From positions 1 through 49,732 of the forward strand of contig PCSU01000056.1 of assembly GCA_002771355.1 (NCBI GenBank): 49,732 nt of DNA, given 5' to 3'. The notes under the pieces were generated by a model, which was not told the DNA's origin, did not search any database, and saw only the letters and a list, made by a program, of their open reading frames with translations. How positions within the stretch are numbered: position 1 is the first letter of the stretch; the number at the start of each line of letters is the position of its first letter. This document shows positions 4,427 through 32,820 of the stretch, one piece after another. Source of the stretch: a candidate division WWE3 bacterium CG22_combo_CG10-13_8_21_14_all_39_12. Lineage in GTDB: Bacteria; Patescibacteriota; 4484-211; GCA-002791395. The position numbers and the translations under genes were made by a program.

Positions 4427-4496
4427 CTAAAATGTGTACATTTTTTAAACTAGTAAGTTTTTTCGAATGATTTCATCATTCTTATTTTTACTCTTA

Positions 4497-6299: not shown

Positions 6300-6404
6300 A
6301 ATCTTAAGATGTAACCCTATCTATGGACTCAGAATATATAAGGGATTTCTGCCTTACCATATTCTGAATCCACAACTATAATTACCACTGGTAACTATAT
6401 ACCA

Positions 6405-6575: not shown

Positions 6576-6595
6576 AAAACACCTCCTTATGTTGT

Positions 6596-11680: not shown

Positions 11681-11770
11681 AAGTATTAGTACATAAATAA
11701 CCCCGCCTAACAAGAATGCTATTCACCCAAACACCCTTGGCATAATAAGGTCACACTTTTGTGTACAATA

Positions 11771-16224: not shown

Positions 16225-16228
16225 TTGT

Positions 16229-17352: not shown

Positions 17353-18378
17353 TTAGATCGTTGCAATAAAAAGTCCAATAAAAGCACATAAAGCACCAGC
17401 GATCCAAAACCGCATGGTTACTTTTGTCTCATCCCACCCCATCGCTTCAAAGTGATGGTGTAGTGGTGCAATTTTAAATAATCTCTTTTCCCCAAGATAT
17501 CTAATTGAAAACAACTGAATAAGGCTTGATAATAACTCAATAACAAATACCCCTCCAATAATTGGTAACACAAGAGACTTTCCAATAAGTAAAGCTATTA
17601 CTCCCAATAATGCTCCAAATGCTATTGAGCCTGAATCCCCCATAAATAACCGTGCTGGATACACATTAAAATACAAGAACGCAAGGAGCGCACCCATAAG
17701 AACAGCTATAAATAAAATCACATCTCCTGAAAATGTATGTGGTACTGCTAACACCCAAAACGCAGATAATGCAATTAACATAAGTCCTGTTGCAAGACCA
17801 TCCATCCCATCAGTAATATTAAATGCATTGCTCGACGATACAATTACAAATGCAGCAAAGGGAATATATAACCACCCAAGACTTATATCATTAACTCTAA
17901 AAACACTGGAAAGAATCGGGATTTCAACTGTATGTAGTCCGGTGAATTTATATAAGAGGTATCCAATAATTAATCCTAATATTGTCTGAATAATAAGCTT
18001 CTCAAGGGCAGGAAGTGCACGAATCCTGCGTTTACGAACCCGAATCATTTTTCGAAAGTCGTCATACATCCCCAAAACTCCAAATGAGATAAGTGTTACA
18101 AACAAAATAATTGATGTCCAGTTTATAGAAAATGAAGTAACTACATAAAAAATTATAGAGAACAGTAATACTGACCCAAGGATAAGTACTCCTCCCCCTG
18201 TTGGCGTTCCGACTTTCCACCCATGCAAGTCATTAAATACCGTCTTGTTCCCGTGCATATCAACACTTTTTACAGGTTTTTGTCGAATATGTAACTTGTA
18301 AAGTGCATGTATAAATGGAATTGCAAGCGCAGCAGTGAAGATAAAAGATAGAAGTAATATCGCAAATATTTTGTACAT
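17353..18378 (-). CDS. mraY: Phospho-N-acetylmuramoyl-pentapeptide transferase MraY
   Basis: Polytopic membrane protein with NAFNITDGMDGLA, FMGDSGS and PLHHHFE motifs. Confidence 0.95.
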   Translation of the reverse strand: MYKIFAILLLSFIFTAALAIPFIHALYKLHIRQKPVKSVDMHGNKTVFNDLHGWKVGTPTGGGVLILGSVLLFSIIFYVVTSFSINWTSIILFVTLISFGVLGMYDDFRKMIRVRKRRIRALPALEKLIIQTILGLIIGYLLYKFTGLHTVEIPILSSVFRVNDISLGWLYIPFAAFVIVSSSNAFNITDGMDGLATGLMLIALSAFWVLAVPHTFSGDVILFIAVLMGALLAFLYFNVYPARLFMGDSGSIAFGALLGVIALLIGKSLVLPIIGGVFVIELLSSLIQLFSIRYLGEKRLFKIAPLHHHFEAMGWDETKVTMRFWIAGALCAFIGLFIATI

Positions 18379-18384
18379 TTTTTA

Positions 18385-20472
18385 TTATGTTGTATTTAGT
18401 ATCTTTAATCTTCGTACACCATCTCCACGCTCAGGATGAAAATGCACACTATACGCTTCTCCCTGTGGAGTTTTTTCTTGCCATTGTTGTTCCTGCAACG
18501 ACTTTTTAGCATCAACGACTTTGATTATAGCAGTGTGTGGCCCTTGTCGTACGGTTCTTTTATATGAAGAATGTGCATACTCAATCTCAGTAATAACACC
18601 ATTTTTTCTTGTGATACCAGTAATAATCAAGACATGGTCACCCGGTCTTGCTACACCCATGCGAATCATATCAGATTCTTGAATATCGTTGATATCAGAA
18701 ATGGGAACGGTGTGCTTATCATTTGTTAACATATCTGCACTCACATTTCTGTACCAACGATCCGGCATCAGGGATTTTCGTATCCTGCCAAAAAGGCTTG
18801 TTGGAGTAATAAGTTTAGTAAGACTTGGTATCTCTCTAGTTAACAGATATGCATTCAATACATGGAACACCATGCCAGAACACTCAATGCCAATCTGTTG
18901 CTGTTTCATAAATCTAAACACTTCGGCATCTGAATGGGTTTCAAGATCAAACTCGTTTTCCTGTGCCATTTCAAGTAATTCATGGCGAATCACCTCTGGA
19001 GAACCCTTGCCGGCGCTCCTTTTTATATTAAATCGCTTTTGATTAATAACGTATGGGATTTTTATGTTCTTTTCATTTACCGTAAAATTGATATATTCAC
19101 CTAAGCGTTCCCTCATCGCTCGAGTAGCCTTAGCATGCTTAAGCCTATCAATAAGTCTCTCATCAAGACCATCCATTCCACCTGACGACATCAAAACATA
19201 TACACACGGCAAAGGTTCTGAAATAAGCTTAAAAATTAACACGTCTTGTTGTGGGGCATACATGGTATGCTCATGCGTTTTTGAAATAGCTGCAACAATA
19301 TCTTTACCTGTAACTTTATAATCAGCATCTTTTTTGGCAGACACTTTGGGAATATATAGTTTATCTGCTGCACTAAAGCGATTGTCAAATTCTGTTAATA
19401 CGGCCGGATTTTTAAGCGATGAGGAAAACATGTCAAATACACCAACAACCGTACTGTCTGGCCATTTTTGTTTTATTGATAAAAGCACTGTCTGCGCTTT
19501 TACTGGAGAATGTGCCAAGTCCCTAACAATAACAGTGCCGGCATCGTCATAAATAACTTCCATCCTTTGTTTCAATCCAGCATAAGATTCAAGATGAGCC
19601 TTTACTTGAACAGAATCAAATCCAATCTCTGTTAACAACGTATATGCAGCTGTAAGATTATCTTTATTAAATTCCCCAAGCATGGTCGGTGTCCAGTTAA
19701 GATCAATTGTTTTAATATCTGATGAACCATCATGTGAATACGTTACAACCTTACATGGCGCATGAGATATGGCATCTTTAATGTTTTTACCATCAACATT
19801 TGCAATAAGAACACCATCAGAAGGAAGCTTACTTACTAACTCAATGTAGTTTTTTATATAAAGATCTTCTGTTGGAAACTGATCGTAATGATCCCATTCG
19901 GCTGAGGTTAGAACAAGATACTTTGGCTTATAGTAAAAAAACTTAGATTGCGGCGGTTCACTTGTCATTGGAGGTACTGGATACTCATCTCCTTCAACAA
20001 CTGACCATTTCCCTTGAGAAGAAACCAAACTCTCCTCATAGCCTACCATTTGCCCTCCCACCATATATGATGGATCTTGATGAAGCTGAGATAGCACATG
20101 AACAATTGCACCCGATATCGTACCTTTCCCAAAATTGCCTGCTACAACAATCGACTCATCTTTAACCACATATTCACCAAGAACTTCTGGGTATGAAACA
20201 GTTTTAATATGTAATACTTTAGCCTTTTCAAATTCTGGATTATGAGGGTCAACAATCAATGCATTCCCACCAACTACAACAAGATCCGTCCCAGGTTTCA
20301 GATTATCGGCATTATATGGAGACGAAATCTTGACGCCAATTTTCTCAAGATACGTACTATTTGGCGGATACACGTTTATGTCAGATCCTGAGACATTCCA
20401 ACCCTTTTTTAAAAACATATGAGCCAGGGCAGATGTTGCTTTGCCAGCTATTCCAATAATGTGTACATTCAT
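18385..20472 (-). CDS. Mpl-type Mur ligase (UDP-MurNAc:murein-tripeptide ligase-like) fused to a ~250-aa C-terminal Cys/His peptidase-like (NlpC/P60- or transglutaminase-like) domain
   Basis: The N-terminus HIIGIAGKATSALAHMFLKKGWNVSGSDINVYPPNSTYLEKIGVKI closely parallels E. coli Mpl (GSDANVYPPMSTLLEKQGIE). Also VEGDEY, AEWDH, RDLAHSP and LMSSGGMDGL. Variant P-loop AGNFGKGT. Extra C-terminal region (aa ~446-695) has GIECSGMVFHV ... PGDHVLIITG ... EYAHSS. Confidence 0.75.
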   Translation of the reverse strand: MNVHIIGIAGKATSALAHMFLKKGWNVSGSDINVYPPNSTYLEKIGVKISSPYNADNLKPGTDLVVVGGNALIVDPHNPEFEKAKVLHIKTVSYPEVLGEYVVKDESIVVAGNFGKGTISGAIVHVLSQLHQDPSYMVGGQMVGYEESLVSSQGKWSVVEGDEYPVPPMTSEPPQSKFFYYKPKYLVLTSAEWDHYDQFPTEDLYIKNYIELVSKLPSDGVLIANVDGKNIKDAISHAPCKVVTYSHDGSSDIKTIDLNWTPTMLGEFNKDNLTAAYTLLTEIGFDSVQVKAHLESYAGLKQRMEVIYDDAGTVIVRDLAHSPVKAQTVLLSIKQKWPDSTVVGVFDMFSSSLKNPAVLTEFDNRFSAADKLYIPKVSAKKDADYKVTGKDIVAAISKTHEHTMYAPQQDVLIFKLISEPLPCVYVLMSSGGMDGLDERLIDRLKHAKATRAMRERLGEYINFTVNEKNIKIPYVINQKRFNIKRSAGKGSPEVIRHELLEMAQENEFDLETHSDAEVFRFMKQQQIGIECSGMVFHVLNAYLLTREIPSLTKLITPTSLFGRIRKSLMPDRWYRNVSADMLTNDKHTVPISDINDIQESDMIRMGVARPGDHVLIITGITRKNGVITEIEYAHSSYKRTVRQGPHTAIIKVVDAKKSLQEQQWQEKTPQGEAYSVHFHPERGDGVRRLKILNTT

Positions 20473-20474: not shown

Positions 20475-21257
20475 TTAATGTGAATCACGTTTTATATTTA
20501 AAACGTCAACAATGCCTTTGTAACCATTAATATCTAACCACTCTTTATCTTTAAGAAGTTCTTGCAAAGACTCTTTATTAAGTAGATATTTGAGTGCATC
20601 AATATTTGTATTCCATTTTGATCCATCGAAAAATTCAAACCCAGAAAAATTCGTTTTGTAGAGTGAGGCTTGAGAATACGCTGTTCCCAAATATGCATAG
20701 GACAAGCCATCATTTTTTGCCCAATTAATTGCCTCTAACATCATGCGTGAACCCAATCCACTAGCTGATACTGCGGTGTTAATAAACGCCATCCAATAGA
20801 ACATACTGCCCCCAGATACCATAACAGGTATCATTCCTGCTATACGATCATCATCTTGTCGCTTCCACGTAAAAATCACATCACTCATATGATGAGAAAA
20901 CATTCGTTTTATTGCATGATCGGAAACCTTTGCATCCCCCATTACATCAATAACAAATTGGCGCATCCATAATAAATCTGTGTTATTAATTCTCACTGAA
21001 TCACTTGATTGAATGGTGAAATGATATGGCGATGTTTTTTTTATAACGCGACGATTTTCTGAAGAAGGTTCAAATTGATTAAGATCAATTCGCGTTGAAC
21101 GAGCAAGATACCATAAACCAATTTTCATTCTCGAAGGCAAAAAACCCATGTTAAGTAATGAAGCTTTATCTTCATTATTATCTTCTAAGGCCCACACTTG
21201 ATACGGAAACGCATAGTCATTATAGGAAGCAAGATGTTCTGAGAATAGTAACTTCAT
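20475..21257 (-). CDS. ATE/Bpt-family (arginyl/leucyl-tRNA--protein transferase-like) aminoacyl-tRNA transferase homolog
   Basis: 260 aa. GFLPSR...RIDLNQFEPSSENRRVIKK parallels Bpt GFRRSG...RV..F.PS.SQRR. The C-terminal LSYAYLGTAYSQASLYKTNFSGFEFFDGSKW parallels the ATE_C motif YLGY...YK..F.P.E....W. The N-terminal Cys cluster of Bpt is absent. Confidence 0.6.
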   Translation of the reverse strand: MKLLFSEHLASYNDYAFPYQVWALEDNNEDKASLLNMGFLPSRMKIGLWYLARSTRIDLNQFEPSSENRRVIKKTSPYHFTIQSSDSVRINNTDLLWMRQFVIDVMGDAKVSDHAIKRMFSHHMSDVIFTWKRQDDDRIAGMIPVMVSGGSMFYWMAFINTAVSASGLGSRMMLEAINWAKNDGLSYAYLGTAYSQASLYKTNFSGFEFFDGSKWNTNIDALKYLLNKESLQELLKDKEWLDINGYKGIVDVLNIKRDSH

Positions 21258-21335: not shown

Positions 21336-22802
21336 ATGGATAACAATTTTAGTATTGATAATCTCAAACAAGCAGTTCTTATGTATCACCCATCTGCAGA
21401 AATTGAGATAATAGATAACGCCTACAATTTTGCCGAGATGGCATATGCGGACATAAACAGAATTGACGATACCCCACTTATTGATCATGCCCTTGCAACG
21501 GCACTTATCCTTGCTGATATTCGAGTTGACGAACACACTATTGCAGCAGGTCTCCTTCATGACATCATCCATGAAACAGATCTTTCCCTCCAGGATATAG
21601 AAGGTGATTTTGAACCAGAAACCTTAAAACTCATTACTGACATTAGTAAACTTAAAACATATACGACAAAACAAAGTGAACTAGCCTATGCCCAACAATT
21701 AAGAAATCTATTTCTTGCTACAACTGAAGACATTCGTGTTGTTTTAGTACGACTTGCTGAAAAAATCCACAACTTACATAGCATTACAGCTCTTCCGCAA
21801 GAAAAAAGACTTGTTGTTGCTCAAAAAGCTATTGACATTTATGCACCACTTGCCGACCTATTGGGTGTTCAAAAATTTAAACGTGAACTTGAAGACCGAG
21901 CATTTGAGGTTTTAAACAAAGTAGAATTTGAAACCATAAAAAATTATTATGACTCCAGGTATGGTTCACAAGACAGTACGGTTAATGCGATCCACGATGA
22001 CTTACAGCAAACACTCGCATCACGAAACATGGATTTCAAACTGTATGGACGCATGAAGGCAAAATACAGTACCTATAAAAAATTCCTTGCAGAAAGCGAG
22101 GGGAAACAGACTCTTGAAGATTTTCTCGATACTATTTATGACAAAATTGGATTCACTATTCTTGTTAACTCAACGGAAGACTGCTACAGGAGTTTAAGCA
22201 CCTTGCGTCGTGAATTCCCTTCTGCACGGGATCTAGTCAAGGACTATATTATAAATCCCAAACCTAATGGATATAAAGCTATTCACACCTACATAACTAC
22301 AAAAAACGACATGCCTTGTGAGGTTCAAATAAAAACTCACATCATGCACGAATTTAATGAATTTGGGCCTGCTGCACATGCATTCTACAAACTTGTGGGT
22401 AGAAAACGTGGTTCCTTGCTTGAAACACCTGAAGAGAAAATAACTCAAATGAAAGAACTCTTACATTGGAAGGAAGGCATTCTTAGCGATAACGATGCGA
22501 CAACAAAACTAACAACTTTCAAAAAACATATTTATGTCTTTACCCCTAAAGCCGATGTTATTGAACTACCTCACGGTGCAACCCCAATAGATTTTGCATA
22601 CCATATTCACACTAAAATTGGCGATCGCATACGTGGAGCTCATGTTAATAATAAATTTGTCGGTATAGATCATGTTTTAGAGAATGGTGATGTATGCGAA
22701 ATCCTAACCCGTAACGGAAGACAAAAACCAAGCCGTGATTGGCTCAGAATAGCAAAAACTGCTGCAGCTCGAAGCCAGATTAGAAAATCACTTCAAGAAT
22801 AA
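21336..22802 (+). CDS. RelA/SpoT homolog (HD-like domain + (p)ppGpp synthetase domain + TGS), no ACT/RRM domain
   Basis: AAGLLHDIIHETD (HD), GRMKAKYSTYKKF, DYIINPKPNGYKAIHT, EVQIKTHIMHEFNEFGPAAHAFYK, and TGS IYVFTPKADVIELPHGATPIDFAYHIHTKIG. Opposite strand to the dcw genes. Confidence 0.88.
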   Translation: MDNNFSIDNLKQAVLMYHPSAEIEIIDNAYNFAEMAYADINRIDDTPLIDHALATALILADIRVDEHTIAAGLLHDIIHETDLSLQDIEGDFEPETLKLITDISKLKTYTTKQSELAYAQQLRNLFLATTEDIRVVLVRLAEKIHNLHSITALPQEKRLVVAQKAIDIYAPLADLLGVQKFKRELEDRAFEVLNKVEFETIKNYYDSRYGSQDSTVNAIHDDLQQTLASRNMDFKLYGRMKAKYSTYKKFLAESEGKQTLEDFLDTIYDKIGFTILVNSTEDCYRSLSTLRREFPSARDLVKDYIINPKPNGYKAIHTYITTKNDMPCEVQIKTHIMHEFNEFGPAAHAFYKLVGRKRGSLLETPEEKITQMKELLHWKEGILSDNDATTKLTTFKKHIYVFTPKADVIELPHGATPIDFAYHIHTKIGDRIRGAHVNNKFVGIDHVLENGDVCEILTRNGRQKPSRDWLRIAKTAAARSQIRKSLQE

Positions 22803-22833: not shown

Positions 22834-23955
22834 TTACGTAGTATATTGATTGATTAGTTCACGAACAACAGCTTGGTCACTCCATGGGATTTCTGTTTTA
22901 CCATCTAGATTCATGGATTTCTCATGTCCCTTTCCAGTAATTAAAACAATGCTTCCCTCCGTTGCTTGTGATAGTGCAAATGCAATTGCTTCTTTTCGAT
23001 TGGGCTTAATAAAATAAGTTTCATCACGTACACCACCTGCATTGCCTGCCCCTAAAGCAATTTGTTGACAAATTACGTTCACATCTTCTGTGCGTGGATC
23101 TTCAGCAGTTATCACTGTTAAATCAGCATTTTTTACTGCAATTTCACCCATTGTTGGACGTTTGTGATAATCACGCTCACCAGCACACCCAAAAACAACA
23201 ATTACCTTACTTTCGGTTGAGACCATGGTACGAACAGAAGTTAACGCAGTATATAAACCTTTTGAGGTATGTGCAAAATCTACGATTACTTTAAACTTGT
23301 CATTATATACAACCTCCATTCGCCCAGAGATTGCAGTTACTGACTCGATACCTTTTTTAACAAACTCTTGTGGTACTTGTAAGGCAAGTGCAATCGCTGC
23401 TGCTAGTTTTGCATTTTGCGTATTATAGCTCCCCAAGAGATTAACATCGATTCCCTGAAGCACTCCATCCGAAATATTCTCAGCACTAAGCGAAATATCA
23501 CCAGTAGCTAAAAATGAAAGTTTTGTCTTTTGATAAGCTTCAAAACTTTTATGGTAATCCAAATGCTCGTGTGTAATATTTGTTAGTCCAGTTACATTAA
23601 AATGCACACCCGCAAACCTGTTTTGATCAATTGCATGGGAAGTTACCTCCAAAACAACATGGGTCATCCCTTCATTTACCATGCTACGTAATATTTTTTG
23701 AACATCCCATGCCCCGGGACTTGTTACATGAAACCCTGTATCCATCTGCTTATCTCCAAACTGTGCAGAAATGGTTGATAATAAGCCAACGTTAATTCCT
23801 GCTTTACTTAAAATTGCATGCGTATAAATAGATGTCGTTGTTTTACCATCAGTGCCTGTAATACCAATCACAGTCAGCTTACGAGAAGGGTGACCAAAAT
23901 ATATAGTGGCAATCCACGCACGAAGTAAATGAAATATGTTTTTGATTTTTTGCAT
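22834..23955 (-). CDS. murE: MurE-like Mur ligase lacking the N-terminal (UDP-MurNAc-binding) domain
   Basis: 373 aa. The P-loop VIGITGTDGKTTT starts at about aa 28. Also EVTSHAIDQNR, ITHEHLDYH, VDFAHTSKG, GCAGERDYHKRPTMG, TAEDPRTED and TGKGHE, all MurE signatures. About 100 aa shorter at the N-terminus than typical MurE. Confidence 0.8.
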   Translation of the reverse strand: MQKIKNIFHLLRAWIATIYFGHPSRKLTVIGITGTDGKTTTSIYTHAILSKAGINVGLLSTISAQFGDKQMDTGFHVTSPGAWDVQKILRSMVNEGMTHVVLEVTSHAIDQNRFAGVHFNVTGLTNITHEHLDYHKSFEAYQKTKLSFLATGDISLSAENISDGVLQGIDVNLLGSYNTQNAKLAAAIALALQVPQEFVKKGIESVTAISGRMEVVYNDKFKVIVDFAHTSKGLYTALTSVRTMVSTESKVIVVFGCAGERDYHKRPTMGEIAVKNADLTVITAEDPRTEDVNVICQQIALGAGNAGGVRDETYFIKPNRKEAIAFALSQATEGSIVLITGKGHEKSMNLDGKTEIPWSDQAVVRELINQYTT

Positions 23956-23957
23956 AT

Positions 23958-24977
23958 TTATAATCCTTTCTTTAATCGTTCAAGTTTTACATATATCCAC
24001 ATGGGCCAATATTTCCATACTTTAATTGGATAATCGAGTGTATTCATCCACCGAACTCTTTTACCACCGAAACCTTTTTTAAAGAATGTTAACCCTGCCC
24101 TCGGATGGTTTGGATTGTCAGTTGGTGCAACCCCCCAAAAATCATACGTTTTTGCTCCTCGTTCCTTTGCACGTTTAATAAGTGCCCACTGCAAGGCATA
24201 CTGTGCATGTTCATCTCCATATTCATTGGTAGACCCACTATGATGATAAAAAGCCATCTGGTCATAAAACACTAAAAGAGATGCAGCGTGTACTCTTCCT
24301 TTGTGCTCGGCAATCAAAATCTCAATAAGTCCATCTTTGTTGAATGCTTCAAACTCATCAATAAAAAATTGTTTATCATACGAAACAAAACCCTGACGTT
24401 TTACTGTTTCATTATATACGTCAAAAAGTTTACATAGGTCAGAAACATCCGTTGATATGCGTACTGTCACCCCTTGTTTTTGAGCCTTTCGTACATAATA
24501 GCGCGTATTCTTACGCATTGATGAAAGTAATTCATCTTCAGATTGCGTAAGATCAAGAGTCATGGTGTACTCGGCATTAAAGTACATGGGAGCCTTCCTA
24601 TAACCCATACTAATATATTCCTTAATTTTTTGATCATCGTGAATAAGTGGTGCACGAAAACGCATAAAATCAAGATTTTCTTTTTGAGCATACTCAAGAA
24701 TATGCGTATGAAAAGCATTAAACTGTGCCTTATCCTCCCAATCAATAGTTGGTCCTGCATGCGAAACTATATAGTTTGCCCGTCTAGATTTCACCACAAC
24801 ACATAAATTGGCACCAACGAGCTGGTCATCATCATATAGTCCGAGACGAAGGACCGTATGTCCCTGGCTTTCCTCAAAATCTCCCCAATTCCACGCCTGA
24901 AGCATAGATTGTGGGTTATGTGAACACACTAATGCCCGCCACTCATTTTTATTTGTTACATCATGTACTGTTAACAT
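23958..24977 (-). CDS. FemAB/FemX/MurM-family peptidoglycan peptide-bridge aminoacyl-tRNA transferase
   Basis: 339 aa. MRKNTRYYVRKAQKQGVTV and YHHSGSTNEY...AQYALQWALIKRAKERGAKTYDFWGV are typical of the FemABX family. Confidence 0.8.
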   Translation of the reverse strand: MLTVHDVTNKNEWRALVCSHNPQSMLQAWNWGDFEESQGHTVLRLGLYDDDQLVGANLCVVVKSRRANYIVSHAGPTIDWEDKAQFNAFHTHILEYAQKENLDFMRFRAPLIHDDQKIKEYISMGYRKAPMYFNAEYTMTLDLTQSEDELLSSMRKNTRYYVRKAQKQGVTVRISTDVSDLCKLFDVYNETVKRQGFVSYDKQFFIDEFEAFNKDGLIEILIAEHKGRVHAASLLVFYDQMAFYHHSGSTNEYGDEHAQYALQWALIKRAKERGAKTYDFWGVAPTDNPNHPRAGLTFFKKGFGGKRVRWMNTLDYPIKVWKYWPMWIYVKLERLKKGL

Positions 24978-24979
24978 AA

Positions 24980-26227
24980 TTAAGCTCCCTTTTCTTCTTT
25001 GTACTCCTTATACAAAGAAATTACTAACGAAACGTCTTCATCGGTCATTCGGGAATACGTTGGCAAGTTTACCACCTGTGATGCAACATCTTCTGCTACA
25101 GGAGCATCACCTACGGTATACCCTAATTTAGACAGATCCACTTCACATGGGGCTACTACTTGATCATACCAATCACCCAAAATAACGCCGCGCCGTGAAA
25201 AATACTTCTTCATTTCTGTTGGACTGTTTTCTAAAATGGCATAACGTAACCAAACTCGTTCTGCTGTATCAATTTGAACACTTTGTATTCCTGCATCATA
25301 ATACTTCGATGCAATTTCAGTACGACGATTCGTGGACACCTTAAGGGAAGAAAGCTGGGACATTGCAAGTTTAGCCAAAACTCCAGGCATTTTTTTTGTA
25401 GTCCATAGTGGACGAGGTCCTGACATCTTCTCATCAAAAGACGTGGCTTTTGATATTAAACCTATATTTTGCAACACATAATGCCATGCTTTTCCGAATG
25501 ATAACCAATGGTATGTTACTAGTGATATCCACGTTGTGATCGGATGTAATAGCTGTTTTTTGATCCACCACCAACCCATCTTTTTTCGAGTTTCCACCTG
25601 CTGTCTATATTTGTTTTGTTTTCCAAAATCTTTTAAGACAACAATACCTCCAAACACTGAACTGACGATTTTGTCACGCCCAAAACTAAACACACTCGCG
25701 TCCGCTATTGTCCCCACTGGTTTGCCATCACGGGTAGCGCCAAGGGCATGGGCACAATCTTCGATAACAATAATCCCCTTTTCGTGCGCAAACGATAAAA
25801 GTTCATCAAGATCCTGAAACGGCAATCCAAACGTATGCTGAACAATAATTGCTTTCGTCTTTTTTGAAACATGCTTTTTTACTTCCTCTAAACTCACATT
25901 CAAGGAATCCTTTTCAATATCAACAATAACTGGAGTCGCGCCAACCCAATGAACAGGATTGGTGACTGCAACACAGGTAAACCCCTGAACAATAACCTCG
26001 TCACCTTTGCCAATACTATATGTAGAAAGAATATCCGCTATACCTGCCCGTGCACTATTAATTGCAAACACTGATTCTTTTGAGATAGAAAGAATATCTG
26101 AAAACACACTTTCTAATTCATGTACTGGTTCCGTGTCACGCCATTTCCATGGCTGTAATAGCAATGCTATAGCAAGATGTACATCCTCTTTTGAAATATT
26201 TGGGGATAAGCTTGGGGTGATAAGCAT
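24980..26227 (-). CDS. DegT/DnrJ/EryC1/StrS-family PLP-dependent sugar aminotransferase
   Basis: GDEVIVQGFTCVAV, VIEDCAHALGA, and the PLP-Lys motif FSFGRDKIV. 415 aa. Confidence 0.85.
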   Translation of the reverse strand: MLITPSLSPNISKEDVHLAIALLLQPWKWRDTEPVHELESVFSDILSISKESVFAINSARAGIADILSTYSIGKGDEVIVQGFTCVAVTNPVHWVGATPVIVDIEKDSLNVSLEEVKKHVSKKTKAIIVQHTFGLPFQDLDELLSFAHEKGIIVIEDCAHALGATRDGKPVGTIADASVFSFGRDKIVSSVFGGIVVLKDFGKQNKYRQQVETRKKMGWWWIKKQLLHPITTWISLVTYHWLSFGKAWHYVLQNIGLISKATSFDEKMSGPRPLWTTKKMPGVLAKLAMSQLSSLKVSTNRRTEIASKYYDAGIQSVQIDTAERVWLRYAILENSPTEMKKYFSRRGVILGDWYDQVVAPCEVDLSKLGYTVGDAPVAEDVASQVVNLPTYSRMTDEDVSLVISLYKEYKEEKGA

Positions 26228-26228
26228 A

Positions 26229-27515
26229 TTATGAATTGCTAGTCAATTTCGTCATTGTTTGTAAATTAATCAAAGACCTTCCCTCAAAAAGTACTGCAAC
26301 TGATCCGACCTTGTTAACCATTTCATCATAGAGTTGTTTAGCTGATACAACAAGCTTCGCATGAGCATAATACTTGGCGTGGAAAGGTTCAACAATATAA
26401 AAACCATCAACACGTGGGAAAATTTCTTGGTCCAACGCACTGTTTACAGATTGCGATTCTTCGCCTAACTCATATACTCCCGTACAAACCACAATATGAC
26501 GATCAGCAGGGATTGAAACAAGTTTCTCGACAGCCGCTCGAAATCCTGTGGAATTGCTATTATACGTATCATCAATAACAGAAAGATTATCTGAAACCTT
26601 TGTTATTTGCATACGTGATTGTTGTGGATTAATATGTGAAATCCCTTGCGCAATCTGATCCTCGGTCATTCCCAGCAATGCACCAACAACACGTGCGGCC
26701 TGGACATTTTGATCAACGTTTCGTGACTCATACGTCATTATTGCAACATCAATATTTTTGACAAGCTCCTCAACATTTTTGTCTGCAACATTTAATACAG
26801 CTGTACCGTTTACATCAAGTGCATCAATCAACTCCATTTTTGCTTTTATAATATTTTCCTTACCACCAAAAAGACCAGCATGCTGTTCATTAAGTCCTGT
26901 CATAACACCAATTTTTGGTTTCATCGCATCAGCGACAAGCTTTATTACCCCTTGATAATATGCTCCCATTTCTACGACATATACATCATATGAAGCATCT
27001 AAGTATCGTAATGCATGGAGGGCAACACCAATCTCACCATTGGCACTTTTGGGTGTTCTTAAAACTTTAAATTTTTCACTTAATACGTCGGCTATAACTT
27101 CTTTTGTTGTGGTCTTTCCGTACGATCCAGTTACACCAATCACTATAAGGCTCGGAAACATAGCCCGCTTACGTTTTGCCAGAAACAATAAAAATCGTTC
27201 AACAAAAAACGATGGTATTGACCATAAAAACACAGCCGCTGCTATAGCGAATGGTCCTCCAATAACAACTAAAAACGCTACACATACAACCCAAAATAGC
27301 GATAGCTTTGGAATAGTGACTAGTGGGAAAAGTACTATTACTGCAGCAGTAAGAGAAATAAGGACAATCTTAATCGTAATCTTTGGACGTTTGCGTTGAC
27401 CTGATAGTAATAAACGGACTCGATCTTGTGGAGTTAAAGACTGAATAAATAACACCATTCGATCTCGTCTATATCCTTTGAGTTGCCATTGATATAACCA
27501 GTAAATAAAATTCAT
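26229..27515 (-). CDS. murF: MurF-like Mur ligase with the N-terminal domain replaced by a ~110-aa membrane anchor (2-3 TM helices)
   Basis: VIGVTGSYGKTTTKE, ANGEIGV, VVEMGAYYQG, NEQHAGLFG and IDDTYNSNSTGFRAAVEKL are MurF signatures. The N-terminus IVLISLTAAVIVLFPLV...LFWVVCVAFLVVIGGPFAIAAAVFLW is hydrophobic. Confidence 0.8.
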   Translation of the reverse strand: MNFIYWLYQWQLKGYRRDRMVLFIQSLTPQDRVRLLLSGQRKRPKITIKIVLISLTAAVIVLFPLVTIPKLSLFWVVCVAFLVVIGGPFAIAAAVFLWSIPSFFVERFLLFLAKRKRAMFPSLIVIGVTGSYGKTTTKEVIADVLSEKFKVLRTPKSANGEIGVALHALRYLDASYDVYVVEMGAYYQGVIKLVADAMKPKIGVMTGLNEQHAGLFGGKENIIKAKMELIDALDVNGTAVLNVADKNVEELVKNIDVAIMTYESRNVDQNVQAARVVGALLGMTEDQIAQGISHINPQQSRMQITKVSDNLSVIDDTYNSNSTGFRAAVEKLVSIPADRHIVVCTGVYELGEESQSVNSALDQEIFPRVDGFYIVEPFHAKYYAHAKLVVSAKQLYDEMVNKVGSVAVLFEGRSLINLQTMTKLTSNS

Positions 27516-27521
27516 ATGTAT

Positions 27522-28250
27522 TTATGTGCGTTGGGTAAAACGCATAATTTCTTTAACCACAATCTCAGGATGTTCGTATAAAAACGAATGCCCGCGCCCC
27601 TCTACTGCGACAAGCGTTGATTGCGGTATTTTCTCACTCCATACTTTTGACATGGTAAATGGTGTTGCCTTGTCTTGCCTTGCCCACAACAATAATGTTG
27701 GTACTTTAATCCCCATAAGATCTTCACGAATGTCTTGCGATAAAACTCGACTTAGGATGGATTTTAGTCCTTCTGGTGCCTGCGCATAATCATAAGAACC
27801 TGTACCTTTTGTCCATAGTTTTGTAACACCAGACTTAAAGACAGAAATTATTGGTAAAGAAAATATAATAGATCCCCACGAGGCCAACTGTTTTTTTATG
27901 TCTAAAATCAGGTTTTTGGTCCGTACACCTGACGGATTAACCACCACTAAATGTGAAGCAAGAGTTGGATACTTTGCACTACACAATGCACAAACAGCCC
28001 CACCAAAGGAATGTCCAACCAATACGACAGGTGCCTTAGCATTGTTTACTATGTACTCTTCTAACCATTGTGCGTACTCAGAAATACCCCAATCTGTTGG
28101 AGGTACATTCGTTTGTCCAAAACCGGGCAAGGTTGGAACTAATACACGGTATCCTAGACCATTGAGTTCATCTTCAAGTTTTTTAAGTGGATTTATTTTA
28201 TATGTCCACCCGTGAACAAGAACTATTGTTACATTATTCTTGATATCCAT
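27522..28250 (-). CDS. Alpha/beta-fold hydrolase
   Basis: VLVHGW, nucleophile elbow VGHSFGG, and C-terminal GRGHSF. 242 aa. Confidence 0.8.
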   Translation of the reverse strand: MDIKNNVTIVLVHGWTYKINPLKKLEDELNGLGYRVLVPTLPGFGQTNVPPTDWGISEYAQWLEEYIVNNAKAPVVLVGHSFGGAVCALCSAKYPTLASHLVVVNPSGVRTKNLILDIKKQLASWGSIIFSLPIISVFKSGVTKLWTKGTGSYDYAQAPEGLKSILSRVLSQDIREDLMGIKVPTLLLWARQDKATPFTMSKVWSEKIPQSTLVAVEGRGHSFLYEHPEIVVKEIMRFTQRT

Positions 28251-29502
28251 AAATTTTCATACCTAGCTTTGCCAATGAACTAAAGATATTTTGATGTACA
28301 TCCTTGATCGCATTTGAATATGATATTTCTGAAGTCCCTGATGCAGCCTGTGCACACAAAAGCGCACTCACAGCTGACTCATATGACTCTGGTGCAAATT
28401 TTGTTGCCCTAAATTTATGTGGACCAAATATTCTCACTTCAGATGTAAATGGATCCGATGGTAATACCGTGACTTCAACCCCACAGGAGGAAAGCGGGCT
28501 TACAATTTCTGACACCTTATGCTTTTCAATAAACAATTGGGATTCCCCATCAGACAATCCAGAAATGACGCTTAATACTGATTGCCATATGAGGGGTAAT
28601 CTTTGAGACTCACTAAGCGTTTGAATAGATGGGGTAAATACCTGGTCTTTTTGCCACACTCTTAAAACCTCTTTATCAAGACTAAATTCAACACCACGAT
28701 CTAATAATCGCTTTGTTATCCGTGATAATGATTTATTGGGAAAGTTAGTTATTTGTATATCTCCTCTAGAAACTGCAACCAATGCCAAATATAACAAGGC
28801 TTCGCGTGATGATGGCGGAACCACATACAAAATTCCAATAAGTTCAGGGACAGACTCGACAACAATTTCAAGATTATCTCCTTGAATATGAACCCCCATT
28901 TGTGTAAAAACAGCTTTTAAAATATCAAACTCCTCTGAGGGAGCACATTGCTTAATCGTTGTCTTTAAACCACTTGTGGCTAACGTAAGGGCAACGAGCG
29001 AGGCAAGCACCTTATCTTCAAAGGACATCTCTGATGGAAGAGTAACCGCACAATCTTTTTTTGTTGTGGGCAAATATGCAACTACATAATGGGACTCTAA
29101 CTCAACGGTTACACCAAATGCCTCTAGGATTGGACGAAGGTATGAATGAGATGCAATAACAGTCTCGGGAATGCCGGCCTTTCCAAATCGTGCGAGTAAT
29201 GTTGCCCAAATCAATACAAGTTCAAATGTAGTAAGAGTTTTGTTGGGAGGAATCGCCGACATTGAAATTGATTCTCCATGAATGGAAACCCCATCATCTG
29301 TTAGAATTTGAGCTCCAATAAAGGCAAGTATTTCTGTTGTATCCCCTAATGTTTTACAATCTGGTGGATTTTTTACAACGGTCGGGTTCTGTGACAATAT
29401 TCCTGCAATAAGTGCGATTTTAGAAGCCATAACACTCTCAGATAGTGTTACCTCTCCCGTTAAGTAGCTATTCCCCTCAATTGTTATTGTTTCTATCTCC
29501 AT
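28234..29502 (-). CDS. MurA/EPSP-synthase-fold protein with degenerate active-site residues
   Basis: 422 aa, alignable by eye to MurA. LTGEVTLSESVMASKIALIAGIL parallels [23 protein letters not shown], and LLARFGKAGIPETVIASHSYLRP parallels [22 protein letters not shown]. The K22/N23 equivalents are V/M, and the loop has no Cys or Asp. Confidence 0.65.
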   Translation of the reverse strand: MEIETITIEGNSYLTGEVTLSESVMASKIALIAGILSQNPTVVKNPPDCKTLGDTTEILAFIGAQILTDDGVSIHGESISMSAIPPNKTLTTFELVLIWATLLARFGKAGIPETVIASHSYLRPILEAFGVTVELESHYVVAYLPTTKKDCAVTLPSEMSFEDKVLASLVALTLATSGLKTTIKQCAPSEEFDILKAVFTQMGVHIQGDNLEIVVESVPELIGILYVVPPSSREALLYLALVAVSRGDIQITNFPNKSLSRITKRLLDRGVEFSLDKEVLRVWQKDQVFTPSIQTLSESQRLPLIWQSVLSVISGLSDGESQLFIEKHKVSEIVSPLSSCGVEVTVLPSDPFTSEVRIFGPHKFRATKFAPESYESAVSALLCAQAASGTSEISYSNAIKDVHQNIFSSLAKLGMKIYGYQE

Positions 29503-32807: not shown

Positions 32808-32820
32808 TAAATTCCCCAAT

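What the first reader, a model, noticed from the sequence alone, without database searches (positions are those of the whole stretch)
22834..27515. MurE-like and MurF-like ligases both lack the UDP-binding N-terminal domain, and the MurF-like enzyme is membrane-tethered
Seen: in the MurE-like ORF the P-loop (GITGTDGKTTT) begins at about residue 33, whereas typical MurE has a ~100-aa domain before it. The later MurE signatures (DFAHT, ERD..KRP, EDPR.ED, GKGHE) are intact. In the MurF-like ORF the first ~110 aa are two or three hydrophobic helices, followed directly by GVTGSYGKTTT and the DDTYNSN motif. A DegT aminotransferase and a FemAB gene sit between them. Established: domain 1 of Mur ligases positions the UDP of UDP-MurNAc substrates. 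Inference: these enzymes may act on non-nucleotide acceptors, such as free or carrier-bound peptide or lipid-linked intermediates at the membrane. The EDPR variant of the MurE DNPR motif leaves the position-3 residue open.
Basis: partly seen in the sequence, partly recalled or inferred. Interest (0 to 1): 0.68.

Follow-up and report, generated by a model that had tools for sequence, protein, structure and literature searches.

The report
Two-domain MurE and membrane-embedded MurF
In this candidate-phylum (WWE3) bacterium, and across the whole Patescibacteria radiation, two of the four cell-wall peptide ligases lack the domain that normally grips the UDP handle of their substrate, and one of them (MurF) carries a conserved, undescribed membrane module in its place, so the last cytoplasmic steps of cell-wall precursor synthesis probably run differently there than in the textbook.

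Summary
The MurE-like ORF (22834-23955, minus strand) has 30 residues before its P-loop. It passes the NCBIfam murE cut-off from profile position ~95 onward and cannot be extended upstream. The MurF-like ORF (26229-27515) aligns to solved MurF only from residue ~112. Residues 1-122 form three short cytosolic helices plus a transmembrane hairpin, which continues as one helix into the ligase core.

Neither feature is an artefact or a local oddity:
- All 120 closest MurE clusters have the P-loop at residue 31-72.
- 118 of 120 closest MurF clusters have hydrophobic N-termini with a near-invariant WQLKEY-x3-R and P-x2-T-x-K signature.
- That module has about 1,070 representatives, always N-terminal to a Mur ligase, and no Pfam family.
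- It lies in a conserved block, alpha/beta-hydrolase, MurF, DegT-like, FemAB-like. One protein fuses MurF to the DegT-like enzyme.

Catalytic and peptide-binding residues are intact. MurC here, and MurD and MurL in a related genome, keep UDP-type architecture.

Best reading: these are the lineage's working MurE and MurF, with MurF operating at the membrane. Whether the acceptor handle is UDP or the lipid carrier is unresolved. I found no published description. I rate it a new variant of a known kind.

The parts
22834..23955 (-). Two-domain MurE (373 aa): central ATP-binding domain plus C-terminal domain, no domain 1
   Evidence: TIGR01085 scores 351 bits (cut-off 257), aligned from profile position ~95. 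Pfam finds Mur_ligase_M and Mur_ligase_C only. AF2 pLDDT 93.4. The best Foldseek hits are MurE 2xja, 2wtz, 1e8c and 4bub, with TM-score 0.83-0.87 normalised to the query and 0.63-0.68 normalised to the target.
23866..23955 (-). The 30 residues before the MurE P-loop: a single helix (2-19) equivalent to the canonical linker helix, then the first strand
   Evidence: Aligns to M. tuberculosis MurE from residue 134 and to plant MurE-like from residue 329. AF2 secondary structure. Stops in the upstream frame.
23833..23865 (-). MurE P-loop GITGTDGKTTT (residues 31-41)
   Evidence: T33, G34, T35, D36, G37, K38 and T39 are invariant in 119 relatives.
23092..23103 (-). EDPR (residues 285-288), the counterpart of the DNPR motif that selects the position-3 amino acid in MurE
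   Evidence: E in 118/119, D in 119/119, P in 115/119 and R in 119/119 short-MurE clusters.
23958..24977 (-). FemAB-family aminoacyl-tRNA-dependent transferase, last gene of the conserved block
   Evidence: PF02388, E 1e-41. Found downstream of TM-MurF in 29 of 30 loci long enough to show it.
24980..26227 (-). DegT/DnrJ/EryC1-family PLP enzyme, with a family-specific insert
   Evidence: PF01041, E 7e-58. The SF-x3-K lysine is present. Found downstream of TM-MurF in 32 of 39 loci. Fused to TM-MurF in P0347.
25334..25618 (-). Aromatic-rich segment of about 95 aa in the DegT-like protein (residues 204-298); QdtB has about 45 aa here
   Evidence: Alignment gap against 3frk. Length is 86-99 aa in 31 CPR relatives, with a conserved WI..QLLHP motif. 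Wimley-White interfacial minimum is -7.9 kcal/mol here and -2.1 to -9.4 kcal/mol across the 31 relatives, so the interfacial signal varies.
26229..27515 (-). Membrane-embedded MurF (428 aa): N-terminal membrane module, central domain and C-terminal domain
   Evidence: TIGR01143 scores 190.5 bits, which is below its 288.6 cut-off. Pfam finds M and C domains only. AF2 pLDDT 94.4, pTM 0.89. The best Foldseek hits are MurF 4qf5, 3zl8, 4cvm and 1gg4.
27150..27515 (-). N-terminal membrane module (residues 1-122) that replaces MurF domain 1
   Evidence: No Pfam hit. A profile of the module finds 1,069 representatives at E<=1e-3, always at the N-terminus of Mur-ligase-length proteins or fragments of them.
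27459..27488 (-). Signature WQLKGYRRDR (residues 10-19; family consensus WQLKEY-x3-R), cytosolic
   Evidence: Frequency of the family consensus residue in 116 relatives: W10 97%, Q11 99%, K13 97%, position 14 is Glu in 94% (the window protein has Gly here), Y15 99%, R19 97%.
27369..27386 (-). Signature PKITIK (P44-x2-T47-x-K49) at the cytosolic entry of TM1
   Evidence: P44 and T47 are 100% conserved and K49 94%.
27315..27374 (-). Transmembrane helix 1 (residues 48-67)
   Evidence: Hydropathy and an AF2 helix at 48-67.
27222..27299 (-). Transmembrane helix 2 (residues 73-98), continuous with the linker helix 99-118
   Evidence: AF2 gives a single helix 73-118. Net charge is +8 for residues 1-47 and +4 for 99-122, which fits an N-in/C-in topology.
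27105..27137 (-). MurF P-loop GVTGSYGKTTT (residues 127-137)
27522..28250 (-). Alpha/beta-hydrolase (GHSFG nucleophile elbow), first gene of the conserved block
   Evidence: PF12697 and PF00561. Directly upstream of TM-MurF in 42 of 44 loci, mostly with a 4-nt overlap.
18385..20472 (-). MurC/Mpl-like ligase that retains the UDP-binding N-terminal domain; serves as an internal contrast
   Evidence: PF01225 covers residues 3-101, E 1.5e-17. TIGR01082 scores 209 bits and TIGR01081 scores 168 bits, both below their cut-offs of 335.1 and 388.7.
17353..18378 (-). MraY-like ORF, the membrane enzyme expected to take the ligases' product
   Evidence: Identified by position and by BLASTP only: 33-45% identity to ORFs in the related loci, and the matching genes in L001 and L003 carry PF00953 Glycos_transf_4. 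This ORF itself was not scanned against a family library.

Best explanation
These are the Patescibacteria (CPR) versions of MurE and MurF, not broken genes.

**What is shown**
- Both enzymes keep the ATP-binding central domain and the C-terminal amino-acid-binding domain, with all catalytic residues.
- Both lack the MurE/MurF-type domain 1. In model enzymes that domain holds the uracil and the diphosphate loop.
- MurE is a free two-domain enzyme.
- The central domain of MurF is joined by one unbroken helix to a conserved membrane module. The module has cytosolic WQLKEY-x3-R and P-x2-T-x-K signatures plus a transmembrane hairpin. This holds the acceptor end of the MurF cleft at the inner face of the membrane.

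**What is inferred**
[quoted passage not shown] Residue 3 is probably a diamino acid whose side chain FemAB then branches.
- MurF still adds the terminal dipeptide, but does so at the membrane beside MraY.
- MurF works together with the alpha/beta-hydrolase, the DegT-like PLP enzyme and the FemAB-like transferase. Their genes are conserved around murF; the hydrolase gene mostly overlaps murF by 4 nt.
- The conserved cytosolic face of the membrane module either provides a new pocket for the nucleotide handle or docks a partner protein.
For: **Identity**
- MurE passes the TIGR01085 cut-off. Both AF2 models match solved MurE and MurF best.
- H76, T78, S106, H107, R113, N126, E130, H131, K145, D226/H229/T230, R261/D262/K265/R266 and GKGHE are invariant in 119 relatives. 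These include counterparts of M. tuberculosis Thr195, Ser222 and Arg230, named as substrate contacts in PMC6736417. The counterpart of Thr196 (position 79) varies: Thr in 75, Ser in 27 and Asn in 11 of 119 clusters.

**Not an artefact**
- No upstream extension is possible.
- 120 of 120 closest MurE clusters have the P-loop at residue 31-72.
- 118 of 120 closest MurF clusters have hydrophobic N-termini.
- 46 genome loci, nearly all labelled as Patescibacteria lineages, carry the motif at the N-terminus of a 420-570 aa ORF. Most of these have a recognisable Mur-ligase P-loop 105-165 residues downstream.

**The module is functional, not a plain anchor**
- Q11, Y15, P44 and T47 are 99-100% conserved at about 30% overall identity.
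- The model has pTM 0.89.

**Pathway context**
- The genes lie in the dcw cluster after ftsI, with 1-6 nt gaps.
- MurC keeps its UDP domain.
- Beckwithbacteria has, in order, hydrolase, TM-MurF, FemAB, MraY, MurL-like and full-length MurD. The acceptor is therefore UDP-linked up to the dipeptide in that genome.

**Coupling**
- The hydrolase is directly upstream in 42/44 loci, DegT is downstream in 32/39 and FemAB in 29/30.
- A MurF::DegT fusion exists.
Against: - MurE has nothing to replace the uracil pocket and diphosphate loop. No Mur ligase lacking the N-terminal domain has been shown to use a UDP-substrate; the characterised example, MurT, acts on lipid II (PMC6113224).
- MurF scores below the TIGR01143 cut-off (190 vs 289 bits).
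- In this window no MurD, MurB or Ddl family hit was found. The upstream chemistry in WWE3 itself may therefore not be canonical.
- The roles of the hydrolase and the DegT-like enzyme are unexplained.
- I had no model coordinates, so I could not check whether the conserved motif faces the acceptor cleft.
Confidence: 0.5

Rival explanations
1. Lipid-linked acceptor. MraY transfers a shorter muramyl peptide to undecaprenyl phosphate. The membrane-embedded MurF, and possibly the two-domain MurE, then complete the stem peptide on undecaprenyl-PP-MurNAc-peptide at the inner membrane face, in the way MurT/GatD and the Fem enzymes act on lipid II. On this view domain 1 was lost because UDP is no longer the handle.
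For: [quoted passage not shown] An N-terminal domain would clash with the membrane for a lipid substrate (PMC6113224).
- In this MurF the membrane starts at that boundary, because helix 73-118 is continuous.
- Conserved K/R/T/Q/Y residues lie at the membrane-cytosol interface.
- The partner proteins also carry aromatic, interface-seeking segments: the DegT-like insert and the FemAB tail.
- FemAB relatives in S. aureus act on lipid II (PMC6113224 introduction).
Against: - It requires MraY to prefer a tri- or dipeptide donor, and no sequence evidence for that was sought or found.
- MurE has no membrane segment; its maximum Kyte-Doolittle score is 1.29.
- Conserved aromatic plus Gln/Glu residues (W10, Q11, E14, Y15) would suit a uridine pocket equally well.
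- It would be a departure from a pathway order conserved in all studied bacteria.
Confidence: 0.27
2. The block of hydrolase, TM-MurF, DegT-like and FemAB-like genes is not the D-Ala-D-Ala-adding step. On this view the MurF-like ligase adds a different residue, or decorates another envelope polymer or lipid-linked glycan, and a conventional MurF lies elsewhere in the genome.
For: - The score is below the murF cut-off.
- The association with a sugar-aminotransferase-type enzyme and a hydrolase is conserved, and neither has a role in textbook precursor synthesis.
Against: - It occupies the canonical murF slot after ftsI.
- It is the only MurF-like gene in the dcw clusters examined.
- The MurF-type C-terminal signatures are kept: DDTYNSN, and E349/L350/G351 conserved in >=90% of relatives.
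- Its best structural matches are MurF.
- The top 120 homologue clusters show no separate canonical CPR MurF.
- FtsI-type transpeptidases need a D-Ala-D-Ala donor.
Confidence: 0.1
3. The stem peptide is pre-assembled free or on a carrier. The domain-1-less ligases extend a free or carrier-bound peptide, and the MurC/Mpl-like ligase, which does have a UDP-binding domain, then attaches the finished peptide to UDP-MurNAc, as Mpl does with recycled tripeptide.
For: - The MurC-like protein scores nearly as well on Mpl (168 bits) as on MurC (209 bits) and carries an extra 250-aa C-terminal region.
- No MurD is present in this window. An ATP-grasp ligase and a PLP enzyme occupy its slot.
Against: - The residues of the MurE central domain that bind the MurNAc-dipeptide part are invariant.
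- Other CPR lineages with the same short MurE and TM-MurF have a full-length MurD and a MurL-like enzyme whose characterised homologue acts on UDP-MurNAc-dipeptide.
- Membrane anchoring of MurF has no rationale in this scheme.
Confidence: 0.05
4. Artefact: mis-called starts, a frameshift or assembly error, or decaying pseudogenes.
For: None found.
Against: - In-frame stops lie directly upstream of both ORFs.
- The flanking genes are full length and tightly packed.
- The same architecture occurs in hundreds of independent assemblies from many CPR classes.
- Catalytic residues are invariant.
- The AF2 models are of high confidence.
Confidence: 0.01

Closest known systems
[quoted passage not shown] E. 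coli 1E8C, M. tuberculosis 2WTZ/2XJA, T. maritima 4BUB)
   Same: - Same family by profile (TIGR01085 above its cut-off).
- Same central and C-terminal folds.
- Same P-loop, same Lys at the carbamylation position, and same substrate-contact Thr/Ser/Arg.
- Same GKGHE motif and same dcw context.
   Different: - Lacks the whole of domain 1, about 90-120 aa, which includes the uracil pocket and the diphosphate loop.
- The motif is EDPR rather than DNPR.
- The WWE3 clade also lacks about 25 aa of the distal central domain, relative to the 56-57 residues typical of other CPR short MurEs.
Canonical MurF (UDP-MurNAc-tripeptide:D-Ala-D-Ala ligase; e.g. E. coli 1GG4, P. aeruginosa 4CVK/4CVM, A. baumannii 4QF5)
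   Same: - Solved MurF enzymes are its best structural and sequence matches.
- Shares the central and C-terminal domains, the DD-x-YN-x-N motif, and the position after ftsI in the dcw cluster.
   Different: - Domain 1 is replaced by a conserved membrane module with 2 TM helices here and an estimated 3-5 in other CPR.
- It scores below the murF family cut-off.
- Its gene is embedded in a conserved block with a hydrolase gene (mostly 4-nt overlap), a DegT-like gene and a FemAB-like gene.
MurT of the MurT/GatD lipid II amidotransferase
   Same: A Mur-ligase-superfamily enzyme that lacks the UDP-binding N-terminal domain and acts on a membrane-bound (lipid II) substrate. It is the precedent for the idea that 'no domain 1 means a lipid-linked acceptor'.
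   Different: - MurT has a DUF1727-type C-terminal domain, a zinc ribbon and an obligatory GatD partner, and it amidates rather than adds an amino acid.
- The MurT model does not appear in the complete NCBIfam hit list of the MurF-like protein, nor among the 25 (of 29) hits shown for the MurE-like protein.
- MurT is soluble, not membrane-embedded.
Two-domain members of the Mur ligase superfamily acting on non-nucleotide acceptors (FolC/FPGS, cyanophycin synthetase M domain, CapB)
   Same: They share the architecture of a central plus a C-terminal domain without a UDP-binding domain.
   Different: They are only distant relatives: folC scores 71 bits and cyanophycin synthetase 92 bits, against 351 bits for murE. 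Their acceptors and C-terminal specificity residues differ.
MurE-MurF fusion of Bordetella (8F5D) and other Mur-enzyme fusions or scaffolds
   Same: They are another way of bringing late Mur steps physically together for channelling.
   Different: The fusion keeps both N-terminal domains and is soluble. Here proximity would be achieved by membrane insertion next to MraY.

Membership tests
MurE (TIGR01085 / UDP-N-acetylmuramyl-tripeptide synthetase) | Whole-protein profile score above the curated cut-off | tested here: met
   351.1 bits against a cut-off of 257.3.
MurE (TIGR01085 / UDP-N-acetylmuramyl-tripeptide synthetase) | Three-domain architecture with an N-terminal UDP-binding domain 1 | tested here: not met
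   There are only 30 residues before the P-loop. No PF01225 hit. The alignment starts at profile position ~95 and at M. tuberculosis residue 134. Foldseek TM-score normalised to the full-length target is only 0.63-0.68.
MurE (TIGR01085 / UDP-N-acetylmuramyl-tripeptide synthetase) | Catalytic core: P-loop, Mg/ATP residues, Lys at the carbamylation position, central-domain contacts to MurNAc-L-Ala-D-Glu | tested here: met
   The P-loop residues 33-39, T78, S106, H107, R113, N126, E130, H131 and K145 are invariant in 119 relatives. Position 79 (the counterpart of M. tuberculosis Thr196) varies between Thr, Ser and Asn. Mapping onto M. tuberculosis Thr195/196, Ser222 and Arg230 uses.
MurE (TIGR01085 / UDP-N-acetylmuramyl-tripeptide synthetase) | DNPR-type motif that selects the position-3 amino acid | tested here: inconclusive
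   EDPR, conserved family-wide. The Arg is kept and the Asn is replaced by Asp. The specificity (DAP, Lys, Orn or other) cannot be read from sequence.
MurE (TIGR01085 / UDP-N-acetylmuramyl-tripeptide synthetase) | [quoted passage not shown] | not testable with these tools
   Needs an enzyme assay.
MurF (TIGR01143 / UDP-MurNAc-tripeptide:D-Ala-D-Ala ligase) | Whole-protein profile score above the curated cut-off | tested here: not met
   190.5 bits against a cut-off of 288.6. The Beckwithbacteria orthologue scores 197.9 bits.
MurF (TIGR01143 / UDP-MurNAc-tripeptide:D-Ala-D-Ala ligase) | MurF is the best match among Mur ligases by sequence and by fold | tested here: met
   murF is the top NCBIfam hit. 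The top PDB sequence hits are all MurF. The top 10 Foldseek hits are MurF.
MurF (TIGR01143 / UDP-MurNAc-tripeptide:D-Ala-D-Ala ligase) | N-terminal UDP-binding domain 1 | tested here: not met
   Residues 1-~111 have no counterpart in solved MurF. They form helices and a TM hairpin.
MurF (TIGR01143 / UDP-MurNAc-tripeptide:D-Ala-D-Ala ligase) | Position in the dcw cluster downstream of ftsI and near mraY | tested here: met
   The window order is ftsI, murA-like, hydrolase, murF, with mraY in the same cluster further downstream, after the DegT-like, FemAB, murE and murC-like genes. In other CPR loci the order is murF, (DegT), FemAB, mraY.
MurF (TIGR01143 / UDP-MurNAc-tripeptide:D-Ala-D-Ala ligase) | Adds D-Ala-D-Ala | not testable with these tools
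   Needs an enzyme assay. No Ddl family hit was found in the window.
MurT (lipid II isoglutaminyl synthase subunit) | MurT profile match, DUF1727 C-terminal domain, GatD partner gene | tested here: not met
   The MurT model (NF052464) is absent from the complete hit list of the MurF-like protein, and from the 25 of 29 hits shown for the MurE-like protein. The C-terminal domains are PF02875. No GATase gene lies in the cluster.
Mpl (UDP-MurNAc:tripeptide ligase) | Profile match above the cut-off | tested here: not met
   TIGR01081 scores 30 bits (MurE-like) and 18 bits (MurF-like) against a cut-off of 389.

The most novel reading that the evidence does not exclude
In Patescibacteria the order of cell-wall precursor synthesis is rearranged. 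MraY loads an incomplete muramyl peptide onto undecaprenyl phosphate. A membrane-bound assembly then finishes and tailors the stem peptide on the lipid carrier. That assembly consists of TM-MurF with its coupled alpha/beta-hydrolase, the DegT-like PLP enzyme and the FemAB-like transferase, possibly with the two-domain MurE. On this reading, loss of the UDP-gripping domain in MurE and MurF, and its replacement by a membrane module in MurF, are the footprint of that switch.
Probability: 0.25. Interest if true: 0.9.

Novelty: new variant of a known kind. Interest (0 to 1): 0.7.

Why it matters
The sequential Mur ligase pathway acting on UDP-MurNAc is textbook biochemistry and an antibiotic target. 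Its three-domain enzyme plan, in which domain 1 holds the UDP, is treated as universal.

Here a whole radiation of bacteria runs two of the four steps with enzymes that lack that domain. One of them is an integral membrane protein with a strongly conserved, unnamed module, wired to three partner genes of unknown role.

This bears on several questions:
- It gives a direct, testable handle on how ultra-small, host-dependent bacteria build their wall.
- It shows how dispensable UDP recognition is for Mur ligases.
- It raises the question of whether stem-peptide completion can take place on the lipid carrier.
- It also flags that annotation pipelines label these proteins MurE/MurF or 'hypothetical' without noting the altered architecture.

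Tried and rejected
- **Upstream extension, frameshift or alternative start.** Rejected. Stops lie directly upstream and the neighbouring genes are complete.
- **A divergent but present domain 1.** Rejected. There are too few residues in MurE, and the AF2 model of the MurF N-terminus is helical and transmembrane.
- **Known family for the MurF membrane module.** Pfam at E<=5 gives only noise: DUF6338 at E 0.09.
- **The module outside MurF.** The profile search of 1.84 billion representatives found it only at the N-termini of Mur-ligase proteins, fragments of them, and one MurF::DegT fusion.
- **Is the ATP-grasp protein in the MurD slot a MurL?** No similarity, and no PDB relative.
- **C-terminal extension of the MurC-like protein.** No Pfam, NCBIfam or PDB hit.
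- **Parity of TM-helix number between the motif and the ligase, as a topology test.** My crude peak counter gave 2, 3 and 4 helices in similar numbers, so the test was uninformative. Topology rests on the charge distribution.
- **Literature.** Six full-text searches found no description of domain-1-less MurE or transmembrane MurF. The Lipocone paper and the pseudomurein-cluster paper were checked and do not cover it.

Full report
**1. Where we are**

The window is from a candidate division WWE3 (Katanobacteria, Patescibacteria/CPR) bacterium. The MurF-like protein is 100% identical to 'hypothetical protein COX05_03250 [candidate division WWE3 bacterium CG22_combo_CG10-13_8_21_14_...]'.

The finding lies in a division and cell-wall (dcw) cluster on the minus strand. 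Reading in the direction of transcription:

| Gene | Coordinates |
|---|---|
| MraZ | 33031-33468 |
| RsmH | 31920-32819 |
| FtsL | 31582-31923 |
| FtsI | 29645-31573 |
| very divergent MurA-like | 28234-29502 |
| alpha/beta-hydrolase | 27522-28250 |
| MurF-like | 26229-27515 |
| DegT-like | 24980-26227 |
| FemAB-like | 23958-24977 |
| MurE-like | 22834-23955 |
| RelA/SpoT (plus strand) | 21336-22802 |
| ATE_C/GNAT-like | 20475-21257 |
| MurC/Mpl-like, 695 aa | 18385-20472 |
| MraY | 17353-18378 |
| PALP-fold PLP enzyme | 16229-17119 |
| ATP-grasp protein | 14878-16224 |
| FtsW | 13770-14909 |
| MurG | 12561-13700 |
| FtsQ-like | 11771-12604 |
| FtsA | 10391-11713 |
| FtsZ | 9142-10254 |

From MurA-like to MurE-like the gaps are -17, 6, 1, 2 and 2 nt, so this stretch is one tightly packed transcription unit.

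**2.

*MurE-like (373 aa).*
- Pfam sees only the middle and C-terminal Mur ligase domains.
- NCBIfam murE (TIGR01085) scores 351 bits, above its 257-bit cut-off, but residue 13 aligns to profile position 95.
- Against solved MurE, residue 15 aligns to residue 134 of the M. tuberculosis enzyme.
- The ORF already begins at the first start codon after a stop. The upstream frame is full of stops, and the FemAB stop codon lies 2 nt before the ATG in another frame.

*MurF-like (428 aa).*
- The P-loop is at residues 127-137.
- E. coli MurF aligns only from query 112 to residue 90.
- Residues 44-113 are strongly hydrophobic.
- An in-frame stop lies two codons upstream of the start.

*Structure predictions.* AlphaFold2 with 116 and 119 homologues gives confident models, with pLDDT 94.4 and 93.4 and pTM 0.89 for both.
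- The MurE model matches solved MurE. The TM-score is 0.83-0.87 normalised to the query but only 0.63-0.68 normalised to the full-length targets, as expected if about 100 residues are missing.
- The MurF model matches MurF best.
- In the MurF model, residues 1-38 form three short helices and 48-67 a membrane helix. Residues 73-118 form one uninterrupted helix that leaves the membrane and runs into the P-loop strand.
- The net charge is +8 for residues 1-47 and +4 for 99-122. This fits both ends lying in the cytoplasm, as an ATP-dependent ligase requires.

**3. The architecture is lineage-wide, not local**

- The 120 best MurE clusters, out of at least 8,000 hits, are 373-503 aa. None has a PF01225 N-terminal domain. 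In the 119 where the motif search found it, the P-loop lies at residue 31-72, mostly 31-42. Named sources include WWE3, Dojkabacteria, Microgenomates, Magasanikbacteria and Doudnabacteria.
- Of the 120 best MurF clusters, 118 have hydrophobic segments before the P-loop. Named sources include WWE3, Nealsonbacteria and Gottesmanbacteria.
- The MurF N-termini share a strong signature. W10, Q11, K13, Glu at position 14 (Gly in the window protein), Y15 and R19 are 94-99% conserved (consensus WQLKEY-x3-R). P44 and T47 are 100% conserved and K49 94%. Overall identity across the family is about 30%.
- Most homologues have one extra TM helix before the motif and an estimated two to four between the motif and the ligase. 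The WWE3 form is the shortest.
- Pfam has no model for this module.
- A scan of one genome per species with the motif returned 46 loci. Nearly all are labelled as Patescibacteria lineages: WWE3, Wolfe-, Nealson-, Magasanik-, Beckwith-, Kerfeld-, Peregrini- and Peribacteria, Paceibacterota and Microgenomatus. A few MAGs carry odd labels. In every case the motif sits at the N-terminus of a 420-570 aa ORF, and most of these show a recognisable Mur-ligase P-loop downstream.
- A profile of the module against 1.84 billion representatives found 1,069 proteins at E<=1e-3 and 356 at E<=1e-10. The match is always at the N-terminus. The short hits are truncated ORFs that end inside the ligase, or N-terminal fragments that stop before the ligase domain. 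One 915-aa protein is a MurF::DegT-like fusion.

**4. What is kept and what is lost**

*Kept in the short MurE family.* The following are invariant in 119 clusters: the P-loop, H76, T78, E103, S106, H107, Q111, R113, N126, E130, H131, H135, K145, D226/H229/T230, R261/D262/K265/R266, D286/R288, and G341, K342 and E345 of the GKGHE motif, whose G343 and H344 are conserved in more than 90%.

Using the alignment to M. tuberculosis MurE, T78 and S79 correspond to Thr195 and Thr196, S106 to Ser222 and R113 to Arg230. A review lists these as substrate-site contacts (PMC6736417).

[quoted passage not shown] The peptide and MurNAc end of the acceptor site is therefore intact and the nucleotide end is gone.

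*Position-3 motif.* EDPR is the family form of the motif: E in 118/119 clusters, D in 119/119, P in 115/119 and R in 119/119. From my own recollection of the MurE literature, the Arg of DNPR binds the distal carboxylate of DAP, and Lys-adding enzymes vary this motif. I did not verify that here, so the identity of residue 3 stays open. A FemAB-type branching enzyme in the operon would fit a diamino acid with a free side-chain amine.

*Extra deletion.* The WWE3 clade (19 of 119 clusters) has a further deletion in the distal central domain. It has 32 residues between K145 and N178 where most other CPR relatives have 56-57.

**5. Context that bears on mechanism**

(a) MurC/Mpl-like in this window keeps its UDP-binding N-terminal domain (PF01225, residues 3-101).

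(b) In Beckwithbacteria (complete genome CP011210.1, locus L023) the order is hydrolase, TM-MurF, FemAB, MraY, a MurL-like protein, a full-length MurD, then FtsW.
- The MurL-like protein scores 274 bits on the UDP-MurNAc-L-Ala-L-Glu epimerase model, below that model's equivalog cut-off of 700.
- MurD scores 328 bits on TIGR01087 against a cut-off of 212, aligned from profile position 2.
- So only the MurE/MurF-type domain 1 was lost in CPR, and the acceptor is nucleotide-linked at least up to the dipeptide in that lineage.

(c) TM-MurF sits in a conserved block.
- The alpha/beta-hydrolase is directly upstream in 42 of 44 loci, mostly with a 4-nt overlap.
- The DegT-like gene is downstream in 32 of 39 loci.
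- The FemAB-like gene is downstream in 29 of 30 loci.
- The MurF::DegT fusion adds a further link.

(d) The DegT-like protein has the PLP lysine context (SF-x3-K). It also has a family-wide segment of about 93 aa where QdtB has about 45. The segment is rich in Trp and other aromatics and carries a conserved WI..QLLHP motif. The FemAB-like C-terminus is also aromatic and amphipathic. These features suggest membrane-interface binding, but that is inference only.

(e) The structural paper on MurT/GatD notes that the pyrophosphate of UDP-substrates in MurE (4c12) and MurF (4cvk) lies at the boundary between the N-terminal and middle domains. For a lipid II substrate, an N-terminal domain would be unnecessary and would clash with the membrane (PMC6113224). 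In the CPR MurF that boundary is where the membrane begins.

**6. Most likely mechanism**

*Shown.* These are the lineage's MurE and MurF orthologues. They have complete catalytic cores, no domain 1, and in MurF a conserved membrane module.

[quoted passage not shown] MurF adds the terminal dipeptide at the inner membrane face next to MraY, in concert with the hydrolase, the DegT-like protein and FemAB. The conserved cytosolic face of the module either forms a replacement pocket for the nucleotide or docks a partner. I put this at about 0.5.

*Main rival (about 0.27).* The acceptor of MurF, and perhaps of MurE, is the lipid-linked muramyl peptide. The geometry in 5(e), the interface-located conserved basic and polar residues, and the membrane-seeking features of the partners favour it. 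Against it are the need for a re-specified MraY and the absence of any membrane element in MurE.

*Lesser rivals.*
- The block has a non-MurF function and a real MurF lies elsewhere (0.1).
- The peptide is assembled free and then transferred in an Mpl-like step (0.05). This is weakened by the conserved MurNAc-peptide contacts and by MurD/MurL in relatives.
- Artefact (0.01).

*A caveat specific to this organism.* The window has no MurD, MurB or Ddl family hit. A PALP enzyme plus an ATP-grasp protein sit in the MurD slot. The same pair flanks MraY in Dojkabacteria CP129478.1. The early steps in WWE3 and Dojkabacteria may therefore themselves be unusual.

**7. Comparison with what is known, and novelty**

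The proteins work like MurE and MurF and belong to those families by core sequence and fold. Both fail the defining three-domain architecture, and MurF also fails the curated family score. They are not MurT, Mpl, FolC or cyanophycin-synthetase relatives.

Six full-text searches and two targeted paper reads found no description of domain-1-less MurE, transmembrane MurF or the four-gene block. The library lacks most subscription-journal papers, so prior description cannot be excluded. The sequences themselves are public and are annotated as MurE, MurF or hypothetical.

I class this as a new variant of a known kind. Interest is 0.7: a specialist would be surprised that two of the four Mur ligases across a major bacterial radiation lack the UDP-binding domain, and the question of where stem-peptide completion happens becomes directly testable.

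Noticed in passing
window 23958-28250; loci L005-L050: The four-gene block of alpha/beta-hydrolase, TM-MurF, DegT-like and FemAB-like genes is conserved across Patescibacteria. The hydrolase is directly upstream in 42/44 loci, usually with a 4-nt overlap. DegT is downstream in 32/39 and FemAB in 29/30. One representative protein (P0347, 915 aa) is a TM-MurF::DegT-like fusion. The roles of the hydrolase and the PLP enzyme in wall synthesis are unknown.
   Followed up: partly
window 25334-25618 (DegT-like residues 204-298) and 23958-24059 (FemAB-like C-terminus): The DegT-like protein has a family-wide segment of about 93 aa where solved sugar aminotransferases have about 45. It is rich in Trp and other aromatics and carries a conserved WI..QLLHP motif. 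The FemAB-like protein ends in an aromatic, amphipathic tail. Both look like membrane-interface elements.
   Followed up: partly
window 14878-17119: No MurD, MurB or Ddl family hit was found anywhere in the window. A PALP-fold PLP enzyme (threonine-synthase/dehydratase-like) and a 448-aa ATP-grasp protein lie between MraY and FtsW, where murD normally sits. The same pair flanks MraY in Dojkabacteria CP129478.1 (L003). Beckwithbacteria (L023) instead has a MurL-like protein plus MurD there. The ATP-grasp protein is not MurL-like and has no PDB relative.
   Followed up: partly
window 18385-19152 (C-terminal ~250 aa of the 695-aa MurC/Mpl-like protein): This extension has no Pfam, NCBIfam or PDB sequence hit. 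By eye it contains 'ECSGMV ... GDHVLI ... YAHSS', which resembles the Cys/His motifs of NlpC/P60 peptidases. This is unverified. The ligase part scores 209 bits on murC and 168 bits on mpl, both below their cut-offs.
   Followed up: partly
window 28234-29502: The MurA-like protein is very divergent. It scores 104 bits on TIGR01072 against a cut-off of 393, and the best Pfam EPSP_synthase stretch covers residues 9-260 of 422. Its 3' end overlaps the hydrolase gene by 17 nt. Other CPR loci (L034, L001, L003) have ordinary MurA and MurB.
   Followed up: no
window 20475-21257: This 260-aa GNAT protein has weak similarity to arginyl-tRNA-protein transferase (ATE_C) and Acetyltransf_6, and may be a second aminoacyl-tRNA-dependent transferase in the cluster. 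Its orthologue lies between short MurE and MurC in Dojkabacteria (L003 11276-11965).
   Followed up: partly
window 23419-23520 (MurE-like residues 146-177): The WWE3-clade MurE (19 of 119 clusters) has an extra deletion in the distal central domain. It has 32 residues between K145 and N178, against 56-57 in most other CPR short MurEs, and it loses the 'N-x-DD' strand region.
   Followed up: yes
window 21336-22802 (+): A RelA/SpoT-family gene (HD_4, RelA_SpoT and TGS domains) lies on the opposite strand and interrupts the dcw cluster between the MurE-like gene and the ATE-like gene.
   Followed up: no
L001 14196-14918; L034 1139-1840; L003 1372-2217: A Cu-oxidase_4 (YfiH/PgeF-type) gene lies immediately upstream of MurC in two other CPR loci (L001, L034) and is also present about 10 kb from MurC in the Dojkabacteria locus L003. 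From memory, PgeF is a peptidoglycan editing factor. No such gene was seen in the part of this window that was annotated.
   Followed up: no
window 2315-8341: Three consecutive ORFs on the minus strand resemble the ribonucleotide reductase large subunit (703, 600 and 581 aa). Two of them match the barrel domain in two separate stretches.
   Followed up: no
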